Positions 643 to 5,613 of a stretch of 6,775 nucleotides of DNA are shown here, piece after piece; within the stretch, counting starts at the first letter, position 1; each line of letters starts with the position of its first letter. The translations under genes and the position numbers were made by a program. Under the pieces are notes generated by a model that searched no databases, was not told where the DNA came from, and saw only the letters and a list, made by a program, of their open reading frames with translations. Source of the stretch: a virus (Duplodnaviria; Heunggongvirae; Uroviricota; Caudoviricetes); the IMG/VR virus record IMGVR_UViG_2671180460_000004, positions 1 to 6,775 of that record, one strand, 5' to 3'.

Positions 643-740
643 AAACTGACACTGAAGTGCTGAACACCCTCAACTCATGCAGGCTCTTTTCTGGGGCTAC
701 GATGAGCGAAAGTAAGGGGCATAGCATCAGATAGCAAAAA

Positions 741-777
741 CCCCGGCTGCGGTAACAGTCCGGGGTTTTCTGTTTCT
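741..777 (+). terminator. Rho-independent terminator
   Basis: GC-rich hairpin CCCCGGCTG / CAGTCCGGGG (741-765, one bulged T) followed by TTTTCTGTTTCT (766-777). An A-run at 736-740 precedes it, so it could act in both directions. Confidence 0.6.
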
Positions 778-802
778 GGCCCTGGGTAAGGCAAAGGAGA
801 AC

Positions 803-985
803 ATGAGGAAGTATAAACTAATTCTGTTGAGGTTGACTATGAAAAACGGCCTTGAATTAAAAGCGCCTGTAACTGATGACATCAGCAGAGCGGTGGCTTT
901 TGCCATTAAGTGGGTGGCTGTCGGTATCGCTGTGTCTCCGATTCTGTATGGGATGGCAAAATTGATCATTGCTGTGAAATCGTAA
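803..985 (+). CDS. Hypothetical small membrane protein (60 aa; alternative start ATG 839 gives 48 aa)
   Basis: AAGGAG at 795-800 is only 2 nt from ATG 803; the alternative ATG 839 has GAGG 9 nt upstream. The C-terminal half FAIKWVAVGIAVSPILYGMAKLIIAV is hydrophobic and transmembrane-like. No recognisable homology. Confidence 0.3.
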   Translation: MRKYKLILLRLTMKNGLELKAPVTDDISRAVAFAIKWVAVGIAVSPILYGMAKLIIAVKS

Positions 986-1002
986 GTGGGGCAGGGGTAA
1001 AT

Positions 1003-1137
1003 ATGTCAGATAGCATTATAAAACTGGCGCGAATTCTCTGTGTGGTTGTTGGCCTTTCATTTTCAGCAATGTTGGTTGCCATTTTCATTTCCACCGCCTG
1101 GCGAGTATTGAGCTTATCCGGATTGATTGGTGGATAG
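1003..1137 (+). CDS. Hypothetical small transmembrane protein (44 aa)
   Basis: ATG 1003 with AGGGG 6 nt upstream; stop TAG 1135-1137. Product MSDSIIKLARILCVVVGLSFSAMLVAIFISTAWRVLSLSGLIGG has one clear hydrophobic helix. The track ORF 910..1137 starts further upstream without a good RBS. Confidence 0.4.
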   Translation: MSDSIIKLARILCVVVGLSFSAMLVAIFISTAWRVLSLSGLIGG

Positions 1138-1141
1138 CGAG

Positions 1142-1324
1142 ATGAAGCGAAAACACTGGACACACAGAATGCCGCGAACGGCAGCGAAATGGGCACTGGT
1201 AGCGATACTGGTGCCTTTTTTATTGGTGGGATGCGTCAGCCTGGATAAGGCGCGTCAGTTTTTCGATACAGCTTCTCAGGTCTGTGAAATTGTCGACGGT
1301 GTCCGGCAGTGCATGCAGAACTGA
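1142..1324 (+). CDS. Predicted small lipoprotein (60 aa precursor, about 30 aa mature, Cys-containing)
   Basis: ATG 1142 with GGTGGA 7 nt upstream; it overlaps the preceding ORF in a different frame. N-terminus MKRKHWTHRMPRTAAKWALVAILVPFLLVGC has a basic n-region, a hydrophobic core and a lipobox-like LVGC. The mature part CVSLDKARQFFDTASQVCEIVDGVRQCMQN has V at +2 and two further cysteines. Confidence 0.45.
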   Translation: MKRKHWTHRMPRTAAKWALVAILVPFLLVGCVSLDKARQFFDTASQVCEIVDGVRQCMQN

Positions 1325-1486
1325 TCGCCTGTAAGAGCAGAATATTTTGCTGAAAAATGAAGGATGCGCCAGCGTCCGGAAAGCATGAAATTCTGCTGCG
1401 TGTACCAATTTTATCTTATTCATTCTAAATCTTGCCGAATCAAGCAACTGCCCGGGCGGCAAGGGGTATTTTTATCCGGAGGGGAT

Positions 1487-1711
1487 ATGAAGAGATTACT
1501 GGTAACCGTAAAGCCCTTTAACGGAACGATTCCATTCAGGGTTTTGCAGCGTGGACGTGTTCTGGTTAAGGATATCTTCAGTGGTAAATGCACGGAATGT
1601 TATTCCCGGACATATGAAGTGGATGCCACGGATGAAGAAATTTCTGTTGAATGTGATCTGAACGCGAATATGGCGGGGATTGTAACAGCCACGTTGTTGC
1701 CGGTTTCATGA
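1487..1711 (+). CDS. Hypothetical protein (74 aa) with a CxxC motif
   Basis: ATG 1487 with GGAGG 4 nt upstream; stop TGA 1709-1711. Product MKRLLVTVKPFNGTIPFRVLQRGRVLVKDIFSGKCTECYSRTYEVDATDEEISVECDLNANMAGIVTATLLPVS. The antisense ORF 1578..1925 has implausible composition. Confidence 0.45.
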   Translation: MKRLLVTVKPFNGTIPFRVLQRGRVLVKDIFSGKCTECYSRTYEVDATDEEISVECDLNANMAGIVTATLLPVS

Positions 1712-1751
1712 ATGACATAGAATGTCTCTGGGTACCCAAAAGGAGAACACT

Positions 1752-1967
1752 ATGTTTGTAGAAAATAACCTGAAGGCTGATCCTGATAATCAGGGATGGG
1801 TTCTGGGTTGGGCTGTAGTACGTGACAAACCGTGGCATCTGGTCGGTATTTATGCGACGGAGGATGGCGCAAAGTCTAAACGCTCTGAATTGAATGGGGA
1901 GTATGAAGTTCGTTATGGTTCCCATCGTTTAGGTAGTGATGATTTTATGTCTGTCGGACTTAGCTAA
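1752..1967 (+). CDS. Hypothetical protein (71 aa)
   Basis: Strong RBS AGGAG at 1741-1745, 6 nt before ATG 1752; stop TAA 1965-1967; followed by the terminator at 1989-2016. Product MFVENNLKADPDNQGWVLGWAVVRDKPWHLVGIYATEDGAKSKRSELNGEYEVRYGSHRLGSDDFMSVGLS, Trp/Gly-rich and mildly acidic. Confidence 0.6.
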   Translation: MFVENNLKADPDNQGWVLGWAVVRDKPWHLVGIYATEDGAKSKRSELNGEYEVRYGSHRLGSDDFMSVGLS

Positions 1968-1988
1968 CTGGCTGTGATGCCTGTTTGT

Positions 1989-2016
1989 AGCCCCGCAAAT
2001 GCGGGGCTTTTTATAT
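1989..2016 (+). terminator. Rho-independent terminator
   Basis: Near-perfect hairpin AGCCCCGCA-aa-TGCGGGGCT (1989-2009) followed by TTTTTAT. Confidence 0.65.
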
Positions 2017-2028
2017 TTGGAGACGATA

Positions 2029-2325
2029 ATGAAAAAAACAGAAAATAAACCGGTTGCAATTGGTGCCGCTGTTGTTCCGTTTAAGTTTGAGTTGTCTCAA
2101 CTGGTGGAGATGCGCATCAGTGATGAATGGGGTGAGGTTAAAGCCCGCGCGCAGTATGCGGATGGCGAAAATCAGTACTTACTCTACTACAAGGCTGCTG
2201 ATGGTCGCGCCACAACGGAGTGGTTTGGTGAGTCAATGCTGGAAGCAACAGAAGATGATCGCCATCCGGGCTGTCCGGTATTTGCCGGTATGAAATTACC
2301 GGAAGGCGCGGTCGTTACTGAGTAA
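2029..2325 (+). CDS. Hypothetical acidic protein (98 aa)
   Basis: GGAG at 2019-2022, 6 nt before ATG 2029; stop TAA 2323-2325. Product MKKTENKPVAIGAAVVPFKFELSQLVEMRISDEWGEVKARAQYADGENQYLLYYKAADGRATTEWFGESMLEATEDDRHPGCPVFAGMKLPEGAVVTE has about 17 acidic and 11 basic residues. The overlapping out-of-frame track ORF 2054..2293 is rejected. Confidence 0.6.
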   Translation: MKKTENKPVAIGAAVVPFKFELSQLVEMRISDEWGEVKARAQYADGENQYLLYYKAADGRATTEWFGESMLEATEDDRHPGCPVFAGMKLPEGAVVTE

Positions 2326-2539
2326 CAGCAGGCATTATCGCAGCCCTTCACTGAGGGGCCGCGATAATGTGAGGAATAAAAAACCGGTCACAGGGAGCAG
2401 CTACACAGAACCGGCTGGCGAAGACTGCCAATATCACCCGGGCATCGGTACAACATACTTATGACAATAGACGGTATTGATGTAAATGCAATATCATATC
2501 AGAAAATAATAATTTATTGTATGAAAAGAATATTGAGAT

Positions 2540-2570
2540 AAAAATGCCAACCCATTATCTATGGGCTGGC
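2540..2570 (-). terminator. Rho-independent terminator for the minus-strand gene 2597..2797
   Basis: On the minus strand: hairpin GCCAGCCCAU-agaua-AUGGGUUGGC (2570-2546; 10-bp stem with one G-U pair) followed by AUUUUUAU. It sits 26 nt beyond the gene's stop. Confidence 0.5.
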
Positions 2571-2596
2571 ATAATGATTAGTCCGAAAGTGAATAT

Positions 2597-2797
2597 TTAA
2601 AGAAACTGATTAAATTCCTTAACTGAATCATGCAGTTCGTATTCTTTCAGGTTTTTGATAATCGCTTCCCTTCGCTCTGGTGGTAGTTGAGCCATGAGGA
2701 AACCGACGACACATTTTAGCTGCCCAATTTCTTTATTGAGATCATGAATGTTTTTGGCATTACATTCCATCTGTAATCTGAAATTCTTCTTAATCAT
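2597..2797 (-). CDS. Hypothetical small protein (66 aa) encoded antisense to the late operon, in an AT-rich island
   Basis: Minus-strand ORF with ATG at 2797-2795, preceded on the minus strand by AAGGGA about 7 nt upstream. Product MIKKNFRLQMECNAKNIHDLNKEIGQLKCVVGFLMAQLPPERREAIIKNLKEYELHDSVKEFNQFL is Lys/Glu-rich and probably helical. Its own terminator lies downstream at 2540-2570. No homology recognised. Confidence 0.5.
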   Translation of the reverse strand: MIKKNFRLQMECNAKNIHDLNKEIGQLKCVVGFLMAQLPPERREAIIKNLKEYELHDSVKEFNQFL

Positions 2798-2880
2798 ATT
2801 TATTCCCTTATGATGATGTGGAAGAGGTATTTATCCTGGAGAGTGGCAGTAATGGCCACTGACCGAGCAGGTATTTTAAC

Positions 2881-2946
2881 CAGATTCATGATTAATGAAA
2901 ATATTGATAATTGATCAGATTCATATGAAATTAATAATGATAATTG
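2881..2946. repeat. Imperfect tandem direct repeat (two units of about 33-35 bp) in AT-rich DNA upstream of cosN
   Basis: Unit 1 (2881-2915) is CAGATTCATgattaatgaaaataTTGATAATTGat and unit 2 (2916-2946) is CAGATTCATatgaaattaataaTGATAATTGct. Both begin with CAGATTCAT and end with TGATAATTG. Confidence 0.4.
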
Positions 2947-2949
2947 CTC

Positions 2950-3160
2950 TCATTTGTGCGGGTCCTTCCGGTGGGGTGGCCTGCCACGGGGCGGCAGCGG
3001 CGCGGATTTTCGCTATTTATGAAAATTTTTCGGGAAAAAGCGTGTCGGTACTTCTCGTGTATAACTCATTGTTTTTTCATCAATCACATCCGTAAAAGGT
3101 CCGACATGAAAGTGCCCGAAAAAGACGTTTTTGAGCACTTCCATGTCGGACCCTGCATTT
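2950..3160 (+). other. cos: cos site: cosQ-like segment, cosN (predicted 12-nt cohesive end at 2989-3000) and cosB with three R-like elements
   Basis: 2960-3035 (GGGTCCTTCCGGTGG...CCACG GGGCGGCAGCGG CGCGGATTTTCGCTATTTATGAAAATTTTTCGG) aligns with the lambda cos junction as recalled from memory (GGGTCCTTTCCGGTG...TTACG | GGGCGGCGACCT CGCGGGTTTTCGCTATTTATGAAAATTTTCCGG). cosB candidates: an R3-like GTGTCGGTAC at 3042-3051 and a perfect 11-bp inverted repeat GGTCCGACATG (3098-3108) / CATGTCGGACC (3142-3152), laid out like lambda R3/R2/R1. The Nu1-like gene starts immediately downstream. Confidence 0.75.
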
Positions 3161-3176
3161 GATATGGAAATGTTTT

Positions 3177-3725
3177 ATGAAGGTTAATAAAAAGAAGCTC
3201 GCGGAAATTTTCAACGTGGATCCACGAACGATTGAACGCTGGCAGTCTCAGGGGCTCTCTTGTGTCTCTGGTGGTAGTAAGGGGGTTGAATCTGTATTTG
3301 ATACCGCCATGGCAATTCAGTGGTATGCGCAACGCGAAGCCGATATTGAAAACGAAAAACTCCGCAAAGAGACCGAGGATTTGCGTGCGGCTGCGGAATC
3401 AGATTTACAACCCGGCACCATTGACTATGAACGCTACCGACTCACAAAAGCACAGGCTGATGCACAGGAACTGAAAAATGCCCGCGAAGAAGGGCTGGTA
3501 CTGGAAACGGAATTGTTTACCTTCATTCTGCAACGTGTGGCACAGGAGATTTCGGGGATACTTGTACGTGTGTCGCTGACATTACAGCGTAAATATCCGG
3601 ATATTTCACCGTCACACCTTGATGTGGTGAAAACTGAAATCGCAAAAGCCTCCAACGTTGCAGCTAAAGCTGGTGAGAACGTAGGCGGGTGGATTGATGA
3701 TTTCAGACGCACAGAAGGCAGCTAA
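3177..3725 (+). CDS. nu1: Terminase small subunit (lambda Nu1 homolog, 182 aa)
   Basis: [41 protein letters not shown]... closely parallels lambda Nu1 MEVNKKQLADIFGASIRTIQNWQEQGMPVLRGGGKGNEVLY..., and later stretches match too ([32 protein letters not shown]). ATG 3177 is chosen by this alignment; the track ORF starts at TTG 3159. Stop TAA 3723-3725. Confidence 0.9.
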
Positions 3726-5613
3726 TGCAGCCGGTGCGATAGCAACAGGGCTTGTATCTCTCAATATTCCGGTACCACTGACGACAGTTCAGTGGGCTGA
3801 TCAGCATTATTATCTGCCAAAAGAGTCTTCATATACTCCCGGGCAATGGGAAACACTGCCGTTTCAGGTTGCCATCATGAACAGCATGGGGAATGACCGG
3901 ATCCGCACCGTTAATCTGATTAAATCGGCGCGTGTTGGTTACACCAAAATGCTGTTGGGGGTGGAGGCTTATTTTATTGAACACAAATCCCGTAACAGCC
4001 TGCTTTTTCAGCCGACAGATTCTGCGGCAGAAGATTTTATGAAATCCCATGTCGAACCAACGATAAGAGACGTTCCTGTATTACTGGAGCTGGCTCCGTG
4101 GTTTGGCAGAAAACATCGGGACAACACGCTTACCCTGAAACGTTTCTCCTCCGGTGTGGGATTCTGGTGTCTGGGCGGAGCTGCTGCCAAAAACTACCGT
4201 GAAAAATCTGTGGATGTGGTCTGCTATGACGAACTCTCCTCGTTTGAACCGGATGTGGAAAAAGAAGGTTCACCAACCCTGCTTGGCGATAAGCGTATCG
4301 AAGGTTCGGTATGGCCTAAATCCATACGCGGCTCAACGCCCAAAATTAAAGGTTTTTGCCAGATTGAAAAAGCCGCGAACGAATCTGCACATTTTATGCG
4401 GTTTTATGTGCCATGCCCTCATTGTGGTGAAGCCCAGTATCTGAAGTTTGGCGATGATGCGACAACCTTTGGCCTGAAATGGGAGAAGGGCAAGCCGGAG
4501 ACGGTGTATTACCTGTGTGAACATAATGGCTGCGTGATCCGTCAGTCGGAACTTGACCAGACCGACGGGCGGTGGATTTGTGACAATACCGGGATGTGGA
4601 CGCGTGACGGTCTGACATTTTACAGCGCCGGTGATGAGGAAATCCCGCCACCGCGCTCAATCTCGTACCACATCTGGACGGCATACAGCCCGTTCACCAC
4701 CTGGGTACAGATTGTTTATGACTGGCTTGATGCACTGAAGGATCCGAATGGCGTCAAGACGTTCATTAACACCACGCTGGGGGAGCCTTATGAAGAGGCT
4801 GTGGCAGAAAAACTGAGCTTTGAGTTGTTGCTGGAAAAAGTCTGCCACTATGATGCGCAGGTTCCCCTGCGGGTGGTTTACCTGACCGCAGGGATCGACT
4901 CTCAGAAAAACCGTTATGAGATTTATGTCTGGGGCTGGGCTCCTGGCGAAGAAGCTTTTCTGATTGACAAGCAGATCATCATGGGGAGACCGGAAGATGA
5001 GGACACCCTTAAACGCGTTGATGCCGTGATCCGGAAAAAATACCGTCATGCAGATGGCACTGAAATTTCCATTTCCCGCGTCTGCTGGGATACCGGTGGT
5101 ATTGACCAGGACATTGTGTATCAGCGATCCAGAAAACACGGTACTTTTTTTGTGCTCCCCATCAAAGGGGCGTCGGTGTACGGCAAGCCGGTAATCACCA
5201 TGCCAAAAAAGCGAAACCAGCGTGGGGTGTTTTTGTGTGAGGTGGGTTCCGATACCGTCAAGGAAATGCTGTATGCGCGTTTTGCACTGCCGGTGGTATC
5301 TGCCAGTGAAGTCGCACCGTATACCTTCCGTTTTCCGGATAACCCGGACATTTTTTCTGATGTTGAAGCTAAACAACTCGTGGCAGAAGAGCTGGTTGAA
5401 AAAGTTGTGAACGGGCGGGTGAAACTCCAGTGGGATGCCAGAAAACGGCGTAATGAAGCCCTGGACTGTCTGGTGTATGCCTATGCAGCGCTGCGCATTT
5501 CCGTTCAGCGGTGGCAACTGGATCTGGATGCACTGGCCCGCGCCAGAAGAGATGAACAGGACGACGATGAAATGACTATTGAAGAAATCGCGGCTGCTCT
5601 GAGTGGAGGATAA
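3697..5613 (+). CDS. A: Terminase large subunit (lambda gpA homolog, 638 aa)
   Basis: Similar to lambda gpA along its whole length, e.g. [25 protein letters not shown], the atypical Walker A-like KSARVGYT at residues 76-83 (nt 3922-3945) and the C-terminal [23 protein letters not shown] 3697 follows the TTG at 3694 used by the track. The gene overlaps the Nu1 3' end by 29 nt in another frame, as lambda Nu1/A do. Stop TAA 5611-5613. Confidence 0.95.

What the first reader, a model, noticed from the sequence alone, without database searches (positions are those of the whole stretch)
2440..2950. AT-rich island with an antisense small gene and tandem repeats wedged between the late-region small genes and cos
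Seen in sequence: 2440-2950 is visibly far more AT-rich than both flanks. It contains the only convincing minus-strand gene in the window (2597..2797, 66 aa, Lys/Glu-rich), which has its own RBS and its own terminator (2540-2570), so it is transcribed against the late operon. Just upstream of that gene's start, and directly abutting cosQ/cosN, are two imperfect tandem repeats of about 33 bp (2881-2946). Inference: the composition and antisense layout are what a horizontally acquired, independently regulated insertion would look like, but whether this is an insertion was not tested against related phages. The protein is unrecognised, so its role is open; the repeats could be operator or nucleoid-protein sites, or part of cosQ.
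Basis: partly seen in the sequence, partly recalled or inferred. Interest (0 to 1): 0.65.

Follow-up and report, generated by a model that had tools for sequence, protein, structure and literature searches.

The report
Antisense moron gene cassette beside cos
A self-contained, AT-rich cassette of about 420 bp (promoter, gene for a 66-residue helical protein, terminator) has replaced a shorter segment right next to the DNA-packaging site of a lambda-like E. coli prophage and points against the late genes; it is a typical phage 'moron' of unknown function from a small mobile family found in many enterobacterial phages.

Summary
Window 2440-2950 has 31-36% GC against 49% overall. ORF 2597-2797(-) is a real gene (dN/dS 0.02-0.10, PHROG 6806, about 24 homologue clusters). 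It has an SD, a strong terminator (2544-2572) and a sigma70-like promoter (2901-2873). The two ~35-bp repeats are non-random.

The insertion reading is supported, with refinements. Relatives 96-99% identical in both flanks carry a different 154-bp segment where the window has ~2513-2934. Positions 2440-2513 are shared with relatives and are not part of the insertion.

The gene is a mobile cassette. In 35 loci it lies antisense inside late operons of lambda-, HK97- and P22-like phages, at the lysis-terminase junction or beside tail genes, always at low GC.

Most relatives add a covarying structured 5' leader and a convergent late-strand partner ORF. The window has a degenerate leader and only a decayed trace of the partner.

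The proximal repeat covers the promoter's -35 region. The distal repeat straddles the insertion junction and includes a conserved cos-flank TGATAAT element. Neither is part of the 7-bp cosQ (2960-2966).

The protein is a three-helix bundle with no informative match, so its function is inferred only: a lysogen-expressed accessory factor, with Tab/anti-Tab as the closest analogue by anatomy. Verdict: a new member of a known kind.

The parts
2440..2513 (.). AT-rich end (GC 0.31) of a conserved intergenic module (about 2376-2513) that relatives lacking the island also have. It is not part of the insertion.
   Evidence: BLAST: window 2319-2512 matches L004 3490-3687 at 90% and 2332-2492 matches L003. 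Sequences read side by side. GC.
2514..2930 (-). The island itself: an autonomous antisense 'moron' cassette (GC 0.35) that replaces a 154-bp module found in relatives.
   Evidence: The BLAST gap is window 2513-2934 against L004 3688-3841. Junctions were refined by eye. No complete E. coli genome has it.
2544..2572 (-). Rho-independent terminator of the 66-aa gene. It is unidirectional, with no T-run on the + strand.
   Evidence: 12-bp stem plus T-run; -19.7 kcal/mol, z=-4.6. A homologous hairpin (ATGCCAGCC...GGCTGGCAT) follows the gene in Salmonella and Enterobacter cassettes.
2524..2610 (+). Decayed trace of the convergent late-strand partner ORF ('ORF2') that accompanies the gene in other phages. 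Here it has 4 in-frame stops.
   Evidence: tblastn of the Enterobacter ORF2 gives KRILR*KCQPI-IYGLA**LVRK*IFKETD. Intact partners are listed.
2597..2797 (-). Gene for a 66-aa soluble protein (pI 8.7, GRAVY -0.47): a disordered N-terminal ~16 residues followed by a three-helix bundle. Member of PHROG 6806, function unknown.
   Evidence: dN/dS 0.02-0.10; AlphaFold pLDDT 87.
2804..2809 (-). Shine-Dalgarno AAGGGA, 6 nt upstream of the ATG.
   Evidence: Read from sequence. AAGGA is invariant at this position in all homologous leaders.
2798..2866 (-). Inferred 5' leader of about 69 nt. It is a degenerate, AT-rich derivative of the family's structured leader.
   Evidence: The TSS is inferred at about 7 nt after the -10. 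Residual similarity (CTGATCA, CTGGTTAAAAT, GTCAGTGG, ACCTCT) appears in alignment A2. The covariance model of the family leader does not match (9.1 bits, E=6).
2842..2860 (-). 5'-proximal hairpin of the leader (AGUGGC / 7-nt loop / GCCACU).
   Evidence: Present in the MFE structure, though z=-1.3 is not significant on its own. A hairpin sits at the same position in all three leader types and covaries in relatives.
2873..2901 (-). Sigma70-like promoter: -35 TTTTCA (2901-2896), 17-nt spacer, -10 TAAAAT (2878-2873).
   Evidence: 9/12 match; the number of such sites in the region does not exceed shuffles. The -10 aligns with the conserved TAAGGT/TAAAGT/TATGGT of all homologous cassettes.
2879..2913 (.). 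Proximal copy of the ~35-bp tandem repeat. It lies inside the island and covers the promoter spacer, the -35 hexamer and upstream DNA.
   Evidence: 0 of 1000 shuffles reach the match.
2914..2948 (.). Distal copy of the tandem repeat. The right junction of the island (about 2927-2934) falls inside it, and its cos-proximal half is conserved phage DNA.
2938..2944 (.). TGATAAT core of a cos-flank element conserved in relatives. In lambda the equivalent is the palindrome TGATAATCATTATCA just upstream of cosQ.
   Evidence: lambda 16/19 to the Fur-box consensus; window 14/19, not significant; relatives 13-14/19 at the same place.
2960..2966 (+). cosQ (GGGTCCT), outside the finding's repeats.
   Evidence: Identical to lambda 48473-48479 as read from L027. 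PMC4669245 describes cosQ as a conserved 7-bp site.
2989..3000 (+). Inferred 12-nt cohesive end within cosN (GGGCGGCAGCGG). It differs from lambda at positions 8, 9, 11 and 12.
   Evidence: Alignment with lambda's ends. Variation in positions 7-12 is common among lambda-like phages (PMC4669245).

Best explanation
Window ~2514-2930 is an autonomous 'moron' cassette that recombination placed into the lysis-to-cos interval of a lambda-like E. coli prophage, displacing a different 154-bp module.

Its parts, read on the minus strand, are: an AT-rich upstream region with a sigma70-type promoter (-35 at 2901-2896, -10 at 2878-2873), a leader of about 69 nt starting with a hairpin, an SD, a 66-codon gene and an intrinsic terminator.

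Shown: the indel, the atypical composition, purifying selection on the gene, the terminator, and the mobility of the gene among unrelated late-operon slots, always antisense.

Inferred: host RNA polymerase transcribes the gene in the lysogen, independently of the phage's late programme. During lytic growth, Q-antiterminated late transcription runs through it head-on and damps it. The product is a small cytoplasmic three-helix bundle that acts by binding a partner macromolecule to benefit the lysogen. The most plausible role is interference with superinfecting phages. A host-regulatory role is second.

The tandem repeats are the cassette's promoter-upstream DNA joined to a similar, conserved cos-flank element. 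They are not a packaging signal.
For: Indel against close relatives.

Composition: (gene GC 0.36 and GC3 0.39, against GC3 of 0.45-0.57 for Nu1, gpA, gpW and the endolysin).

Real gene.

Terminator and promoter. The -10 and the terminator hairpin are conserved in homologous cassettes.

Mobility and constant antisense orientation: this holds in 35 loci with 23 distinct upstream sequences. The architectures are lambda-like (Nu1/GpA), HK97-like (Terminase_4/HNH) and P22/Sf6-like, plus slots beside the tape-measure gene and between tail genes M and L. A 552-bp cassette is 95% identical between two different Salmonella tail contexts. The gene's GC is 31-42% whatever the host phage's GC (45-56%).

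Precedents: lambda itself has minus-strand bor and lambdap78 in the same lysis-cos interval. Antisense, own-promoter prophage morons are transcribed in lysogens (STMMW_20121 of ST64B; PMC7067206). Tab of phage JBD26 is an 83-aa minus-strand, own-promoter gene in a late operon that gives anti-phage defence (PMC10884400).

Protein: confident three-helix model, not hydrophobic.
Against: There are no transcript data, and the promoter is a 9/12 consensus match in a region where such matches are no more frequent than in shuffles.

The window's leader has lost the conserved structural elements of the family leader, and the late-strand partner ORF is decayed. This copy could therefore be misregulated or on its way to decay.

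This exact cassette is rare. It was found on 19 contigs of one prophage lineage.
Confidence: 0.7

Rival explanations
1. The cassette serves the phage's own lytic cycle. Either the protein modulates terminase, cos recognition or late gene expression, or antisense transcription from its promoter tunes late transcripts that cross cos.
For: Most copies sit at the lysis-terminase junction, next to terS or cos. The promoter is only about 60-90 bp from cosQ.
Against: Very close relatives with 99% identical cos and terminase lack it. The same gene sits among tail genes in Salmonella phages and serves phages with three unrelated terminase types. Antisense orientation is the opposite of what co-expression with packaging genes would need.
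Confidence: 0.1
2. It is one half of a two-gene defence/counter-defence or addiction module that works like Tab/anti-Tab. The antisense protein blocks virion assembly or packaging of incoming phages. The convergent late-strand partner (M[T/N]LEQRVEALEK...) neutralises it during the prophage's own lytic cycle. In the window the partner has been lost because this lambda-like host phage is not a target.
For: Intact convergent partners overlap the 3' end of the gene in Salmonella and other cassettes, and also in paralogous second cassettes. Their N-terminal 12 residues are identical across 5 synonymous DNA changes. JBD26 tab and anti-tab have the same geometry: convergent, with a 47-nt 3' overlap. 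The cassettes sit next to tape-measure or terminase genes.
Against: There is no sequence similarity to Tab (hhalign probability 0.15%). The partner ORF varies from 37 to 72 aa and is absent, truncated or decayed in the Enterobacter, Klebsiella and window versions. Its C-terminal 'conservation' coincides with the terminator hairpin of the antisense gene. The coding test among close relatives is uninformative. There is no PADLOC hit.
Confidence: 0.2
3. It is a type I-like toxin-antitoxin or post-segregational module: a small toxic protein controlled through its structured leader by an antisense RNA read from the late strand.
For: A long covarying 5' leader. A late-strand terminator at the upstream edge of most cassettes could end an antisense RNA. 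The coding region is small.
Against: The protein is hydrophilic with no membrane segment (GRAVY -0.47). No promoter for an antisense RNA was identified. The window's copy lacks both the leader elements and the upstream late-strand terminator yet keeps an intact gene. The G.U pattern places the structure on the mRNA strand.
Confidence: 0.05
4. In this prophage it is a hitch-hiking remnant with no current function: a cassette fragment caught by illegitimate recombination, with a degenerate leader and a lost partner.
For: The leader no longer matches the family model. The partner ORF is decayed. The lineage is rare.
Against: The ORF is intact and identical on all the contigs returned. The window-to-homologue comparisons show dN/dS of 0.05-0.10. 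The SD, terminator and an improved -10 (TAAAAT) are all retained.
Confidence: 0.1

Closest known systems
Phage 'morons' in the sense of Juhala, Hendrix et al. 2000 (for example lambda bor, and lom-type and HK97 gp15-type insertions)
   Same: Extra DNA present in one phage and absent at the same site in close relatives. Its own promoter and terminator, atypical low GC, and a location in a late operon. Lambda's bor lies on the minus strand in the same lysis-cos interval.
   Different: The product is not a membrane or lipoprotein and has no known function. The cassette replaced another module rather than simply adding DNA. Expression in the lysogen is untested.
Tab / anti-Tab of Pseudomonas phage JBD26 (Patel et al. 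2024, PMC10884400)
   Same: A small (83 aa against 66 aa) helical protein encoded on the minus strand with its own promoter inside the late operon near the terminase genes. In relatives of the window's gene, a convergent, 3'-overlapping small late-strand partner is present, as for anti-tab.
   Different: No sequence similarity. The host clade and phage type differ. The window's copy has no intact partner. No defence phenotype is known.
SPN3UB_0029 / PHROG 6806 (hypothetical proteins of Salmonella phage SPN3UB and enterobacterial prophages)
   Same: True homologues: 84% DNA identity and 86% protein identity. Same length, same antisense orientation and a homologous terminator.
   Different: The SPN3UB copy lies next to the tape-measure gene and carries the structured type-I leader, an upstream late-strand terminator and an intact partner ORF (SPN3UB_0028). 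The window's copy lies beside cos, with an AT-rich degenerate leader and no partner.
STMMW_20121 locus of prophage ST64B (Owen et al. 2020, PMC7067206)
   Same: [quoted passage not shown] This is a direct experimental precedent for the expression logic proposed here.
   Different: It is not shown to be homologous. tblastn finds the 66-aa family only in SPN3UB/KK-2013 among 50,697 phage records, so ST64B very probably lacks it.

Membership tests
Moron (Hendrix/Juhala definition) | Present in one phage and absent at the same position in close relatives | tested here: met
   Relatives with 96-99% identical flanks have 154 unrelated bases instead. In 207 E. coli genomes the flanks occur without the island.
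Moron (Hendrix/Juhala definition) | Its own terminator downstream of the gene | tested here: met
   2572->2544, z=-4.6. Conserved in homologues.
Moron (Hendrix/Juhala definition) | Its own promoter upstream of the gene | tested here: inconclusive
   TTTTCA-17-TAAAAT matches 9/12, and the -10 aligns with a conserved -10-like hexamer in all homologues. Consensus matches in the region are no more frequent than in shuffles, and no TSS data exist.
Moron (Hendrix/Juhala definition) | Nucleotide composition unlike the surrounding phage genes | tested here: met
   GC 0.35 against 0.49, and GC3 0.39 against 0.45-0.57. The same holds in all 35 loci.
Moron (Hendrix/Juhala definition) | Expressed from the repressed prophage | not testable with these tools
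   Needs RNA-seq or 5' RACE of a lysogen.
PHROG 6806 protein family | Full-length significant match to the family HMM | tested here: met
   E=1.9e-28, residues 1-66 on profile positions 1-66 of 70.
Type-I structured leader of this cassette family (model R1, built here) | Match to the covariance model (UCAGCC/GGCUGA helix, covarying 8-bp hairpin, conserved GGAUGGCUGAUUA loop) | tested here: not met
   The window scores 9.1 bits, E=6, and only over the SD-proximal part. Relatives score 60-100 bits.
Tab/anti-Tab defence system | Small minus-strand gene with its own promoter inside the late operon | tested here: met
   JBD26 layout.
Tab/anti-Tab defence system | Adjacent late-strand partner gene giving self-immunity | tested here: not met
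   The window has only a trace with 4 stops. An intact candidate partner exists in relatives.
Tab/anti-Tab defence system | Sequence homology to Tab | tested here: not met
   hhalign of family alignment A3 against JBD26 gp31: probability 0.15%.
Tab/anti-Tab defence system | Blocks tail assembly of incoming phages | not testable with these tools
   Needs phage challenge and electron microscopy.
cosQ (lambda packaging-termination site) | The 7-bp GGGTCCT about 22-29 nt upstream of the cosN nick | tested here: not met
   For the repeats: cosQ is at 2960-2966 and the repeats end at 2948. Relatives with the same cosQ lack the proximal repeat.
Fur box | Match to GATAATGATAATCATTATC beyond what base composition gives | tested here: inconclusive
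   Best match is 14/19 at 2933-2951, and 8-11% of dinucleotide shuffles reach this. The positional conservation of TGATAAT next to cosQ (16/19 in lambda) remains unexplained.
Type I toxin | Small hydrophobic or membrane-active peptide | tested here: not met
   GRAVY -0.47 and a soluble three-helix model.
HTH / winged-helix transcription regulators | Significant fold or profile match to an HTH family | tested here: inconclusive

The most novel reading that the evidence does not exclude
The 66-aa protein and its paralogues may form an undescribed family of prophage-borne, lysogen-expressed anti-phage factors carried on a portable two-gene cassette. The full cassette would hold a riboregulated antisense gene plus a late-strand antidote, bounded by conserved ends that let cassettes swap between late-operon slots of unrelated phages. 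The window would hold a stripped-down 'solo' version that has acquired a stronger AT-rich promoter. In the virion this copy lies within about 60-475 bp of the right DNA end, which established lambda biology says enters the cell first. It could therefore be the first gene available for transcription on infection.
Probability: 0.15. Interest if true: 0.7.

Novelty: new member of a known kind. Interest (0 to 1): 0.4.

Why it matters
On its own the island is an ordinary moron. It shows once more that the lysis-to-cos interval of lambdoid phages is a swap site for antisense accessory units.

Its value is as an entry point to a small, wholly uncharacterised cassette family, for four reasons:
1. The family moves between lambda-, HK97- and P22-like phages.
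2. It is always antisense.
3. In most members it has a covarying, possibly pseudoknotted 5' leader with no Rfam counterpart.
4. It often comes with a convergent late-strand partner, an anatomy so far characterised only for Tab/anti-Tab.

If the protein proves to be a defence or host-modulating factor, the family would add a compact and easily testable system. The window's partner-less, leader-less copy would be a natural experiment on what those accessory parts do.

Tried and rejected

2. Rfam on the window, on L004 and on four relatives found nothing in the island or in the leaders.

3. Are the neighbouring modules A and B known prophage sRNAs? AgvB/AsxR-type anti-sRNAs lie at the PR' moron site, not at cos. 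The Pas sRNA preprint describes Q/holin-proximal loci. Module B has no promoter-like site. I left this as unexplained.

4. Fur box or H-NS motif in the repeats. The 14/19 Fur match is not significant, and there is no H-NS motif match of 8/10 or better inside the repeats.

5. STMMW_20121 as the Salmonella homologue. This could not be shown, and tblastn argues against it because ST64B is not among the hits.

6. A coding test for the partner ORF among close Salmonella relatives had too few substitutions to say anything.

7. My first pseudoknot bracket string was misregistered by one column. It was corrected.

8. An apparent co-oriented neighbour in L048, L050 and L051 turned out to be a shadow ORF of tail gene L.
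Full report
**Setting.** The window is the late region of a lambda-like E. coli prophage. In order it holds a GH108/PG_binding_3 endolysin (97-642), several small plus-strand ORFs (PHROGs 2571, 4280 and 1935, all of unknown function), cos, Nu1 (3177-3725, Phage_Nu1 E=3e-82), the large terminase, gpW and the start of the portal gene. By alignment with lambda's ends, cosQ (GGGTCCT) is at 2960-2966 and the 12-nt cohesive end (GGGCGGCAGCGG) at 2989-3000. It differs from lambda only in the variable right half, as is usual for this group (PMC4669245). Six public E. coli draft contigs carry the same prophage at 99-100% identity.

**Checking the observation.**
- GC falls to 0.335-0.36 across 2401-2900, against 0.54 and 0.51 on the two sides.
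- ORF 2597-2797(-) has an AAGGGA Shine-Dalgarno 6 nt before its ATG.
- A 12-bp-stem terminator with a T-run lies at 2572->2544. It folds at -19.7 kcal/mol, better than all 200 shuffles.
- The repeats are best delimited as 2879-2913 and 2914-2948, with 26/35 identity. Their best ungapped 18/22 match was reached by none of 1000 dinucleotide shuffles.

**Is the ORF a gene?** Yes.
- It matches PHROG 6806 over its full length (E=1.9e-28).
- It has 24 homologue clusters at 52-100% identity in Escherichia, Salmonella, Enterobacter and Klebsiella. There are about a dozen more distant ~70-aa relatives among 1.84 billion representatives.
- Nei-Gojobori dN/dS against homologues is 0.02-0.10, with dS near or beyond saturation.

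**Is it an insertion?** The closest relative found is a prophage of E. coli NS-NP030. It is 96% identical over the endolysin and 99% over cos through portal, but carries 154 unrelated bases where the window has 2513-2934. Phages phi458, cdtI and phiSTEC1575-Stx2k carry the same ~150-bp alternative ('module B'). In 207 of 5,426 complete E. coli genomes both flanks are found about 410-418 bp apart, and none holds the island. So about 417-422 bp has replaced about 154 bp.

The AT-rich stretch 2440-2513 is conserved in NS-NP030 and the Stx2k phage, so it is not part of the acquired DNA.

**Mobility.** The ORF with its RBS is 84% identical in DNA to SPN3UB_0029, a minus-strand gene just upstream of the tape-measure gene of Salmonella phage SPN3UB. 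I examined 35 loci with 23 distinct upstream sequences. Homologues occur in these slots:
- lambda-like prophages, next to Nu1 (the window);
- HK97-like prophages, between the lysis genes and HNH/Terminase_4;
- P22/Sf6-like prophages, between Rz and terS;
- either side of tape-measure genes;
- between tail genes M and L.

The gene is antisense to both neighbours in every one. One apparent exception was a shadow ORF of tail gene L. The gene's GC is 31-42% in phages of 45-56% GC. A 552-bp cassette is 95% identical between two different Salmonella tail contexts. This is the classical signature of a moron. Lambda itself has minus-strand bor and lambdap78 in the same lysis-cos interval.

**Anatomy of the family cassette, and what the window retains.** Most family members share a 'type-I' upstream region, which holds:
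- a late-strand intrinsic terminator at the outer edge;
- a -10-like TAAGGT/TAAAGT/TATGGT hexamer;
- a leader of about 80 nt.

On 15 distinct leaders, my proposed structure pairs 92% of cells, against 45% or less for slid controls. Eight pairs show compensatory changes, which 0 of 500 shuffles reach. Its three helices are:
- an invariant helix, UCAGCC/GGCUGA;
- a nested 8-bp hairpin with five compensatory pairs;
- a crossing helix with three compensatory pairs around the conserved loop GGAUGGCUGAUUA, just 5' of the SD.

The hairpin pairs 115/118 cells on the gene strand, including 12 G.U pairs. On the opposite strand it pairs only 103/118. The structure therefore belongs to the mRNA. No Rfam family matches it.

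A covariance model of this leader finds every type-I member at 60-100 bits. Unexpectedly, it also finds second copies in SPN3UB and three related prophages. Each second copy sits in front of a ~71-aa distant paralogue (SPN3UB_0033, 36.9 bits against the family profile).

Many cassettes also carry a convergent late-strand ORF of 37-72 aa beginning M(T/N)LEQRVEALEK, which overlaps the 3' end of the antisense gene. Between the two SPN3UB paralogues, its first 12 residues are identical across five synonymous DNA changes.

The window has kept these parts:
- the gene;
- the SD;
- the terminator (about 80% identical to the Enterobacter version through the hairpin);
- the -10, improved to TAAAAT;
- a 5'-proximal hairpin (2842-2860).

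Its leader does not match the model (9.1 bits). The outer late-strand terminator is absent. The partner ORF is reduced to a trace with four stops.

**The repeats.** Read on the gene strand, both copies have the form CAATTATCA(A/T)TATT...CAT(A)TGAAT-CTG(A/G)T.
- The proximal copy holds the promoter spacer and the -35 hexamer.
- Its CTGGTTAAAAT and the distal CTGATCAATTAT align with CCTGGTTAAAGT and ACTGATCATTTGT of the type-I upstream region, at the same 35-nt spacing.
- The right junction of the island (about 2927-2934) lies inside the distal copy.
- The cos-proximal half of the distal copy (AATAATGATAATTGCTCTCA) is ordinary cos-flank DNA present in all relatives. In lambda the equivalent is the palindrome TGATAATCATTATCA, 7 nt from cosQ.

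So the repeat is the cassette's promoter-upstream DNA abutting a similar resident element. That could be a recombination joint at microhomology or a local duplication, and I cannot tell which. It is not part of cosQ, which is a conserved 7-bp site. The repeats' Fur-box resemblance (14/19) is not significant.

**The protein.** AlphaFold with the family alignment gives pLDDT 87: about 16 unstructured N-terminal residues followed by helices at 17-36, 40-52 and 56-65. It is soluble (GRAVY -0.47, pI 8.7). Invariant residues across the wider family are E23, K28, R43 and F65, and helix 1 carries the motif GQLKxVxG. No library or fold search gives a usable assignment.

**Mechanism.** The cassette anatomy and its horizontal origin are shown. 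The expression logic is inferred. I propose host-polymerase transcription in the lysogen, opposed by read-through late transcription after induction. The terminator is unidirectional, so it does not block the late operon.

The experimental precedent is STMMW_20121 of ST64B, an antisense own-promoter gene transcribed in lysogens (PMC7067206). The nearest analogue by anatomy is Tab/anti-Tab of phage JBD26. There an 83-aa minus-strand, own-promoter gene in the late operon blocks tail assembly of incoming phages, and a convergent late-strand partner protects the phage itself (PMC10884400; layout). There is no sequence relationship, and the window lacks the partner. I therefore file this as a moron of unknown function, with a defence role as the leading but unproven guess.

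**Verdict.** The island is a new member of a known kind. It is moderately interesting, mainly because of the cassette family it reveals.

Noticed in passing
Relatives: L013 5913-6003, L015 5916-6003, L001 4199-4289(-) and 7293-7379(-), and others: A conserved 5' leader of about 80 nt precedes the antisense gene in most family members. It has 8 compensatory base pairs and a possible pseudoknot (invariant UCAGCC/GGCUGA crossing a stem around the loop GGAUGGCUGAUUA). No Rfam family matches it, and the window's copy has lost it.
   Followed up: yes
L001 (SPN3UB) 7080-7295(-), L013 2907-3122, L032 from about 1874: Some Salmonella phages carry a second cassette with an almost identical promoter and leader but a highly diverged ~71-aa paralogue (SPN3UB_0033). 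The regulatory ends are far better conserved than the cargo, as if cassettes swap by recombination at their conserved ends.
   Followed up: partly
L001 3808-4020(+) and 6905-7111(+); L011 6182-6394(-); window 2524-2610(+) (decayed): A small late-strand ORF beginning M(T/N)LEQRVEALEK converges on the 3' end of the antisense gene and overlaps it. The antisense gene's terminator hairpin lies inside its coding region. The geometry matches tab/anti-tab of JBD26 (L053 1378-1629 and 1583-1834).
   Followed up: partly
window 2376-2513; L004 3548-3687 (module A) and 3688-3841 (module B): Two conserved non-coding modules lie between the last late small gene and cosQ in relatives. Each begins on the + strand with AAAAAACCGG..., which is a terminator-like hairpin plus T-run if read on the minus strand. 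Module B folds well (z=-2.9), but no promoter-like site and no Rfam match were found. The island replaced module B. Their nature is unknown; they may be minus-strand small RNAs.
   Followed up: partly
window 2333-2369: An 18-bp-arm hairpin sits immediately after the stop codon of the 98-aa ORF. It shows compensatory differences from relatives (ATCGC/GCGAT here, ACAGC/GCTGT in L004 and L003) and is followed by no T-run on either strand. It is a conserved structure of unknown role at the end of the late small-gene block.
   Followed up: no
L027 3448-3466 (lambda 48447-48465); window 2933-2951; L004 3840-3858; L002 4204-4222: Lambda has a perfect palindrome, TGATAATCATTATCA, 7 nt upstream of cosQ. 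The surrounding 19-mer matches the Fur-box consensus at 16/19. Relatives keep a TGATAAT core at the same place. I know of no assigned function.
   Followed up: partly
window 647-2318: The whole block of small plus-strand ORFs between the endolysin and the cos-proximal modules is absent from the otherwise 96-99% identical NS-NP030 prophage, which has a single 93-aa ORF there. The entire endolysin-to-cos interval is therefore mosaic, not just the island.
   Followed up: no
window 3026-3053, 3098-3122 and 3128-3152: Three copies of a (C/A)TGTCGG(T/A)CC-type motif lie between cosN and the Nu1 start, two of them as a 25-nt inverted repeat. They have the layout expected of cosB R sites for the small terminase subunit. 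Their sequence differs from lambda's R sites, which suggests a different packaging specificity.
   Followed up: no
window 2895-3095(+): A 66-aa plus-strand ORF runs across cosQ and cosN. It would be cut in two in virion DNA and has no family match, so it is almost certainly spurious.
   Followed up: no
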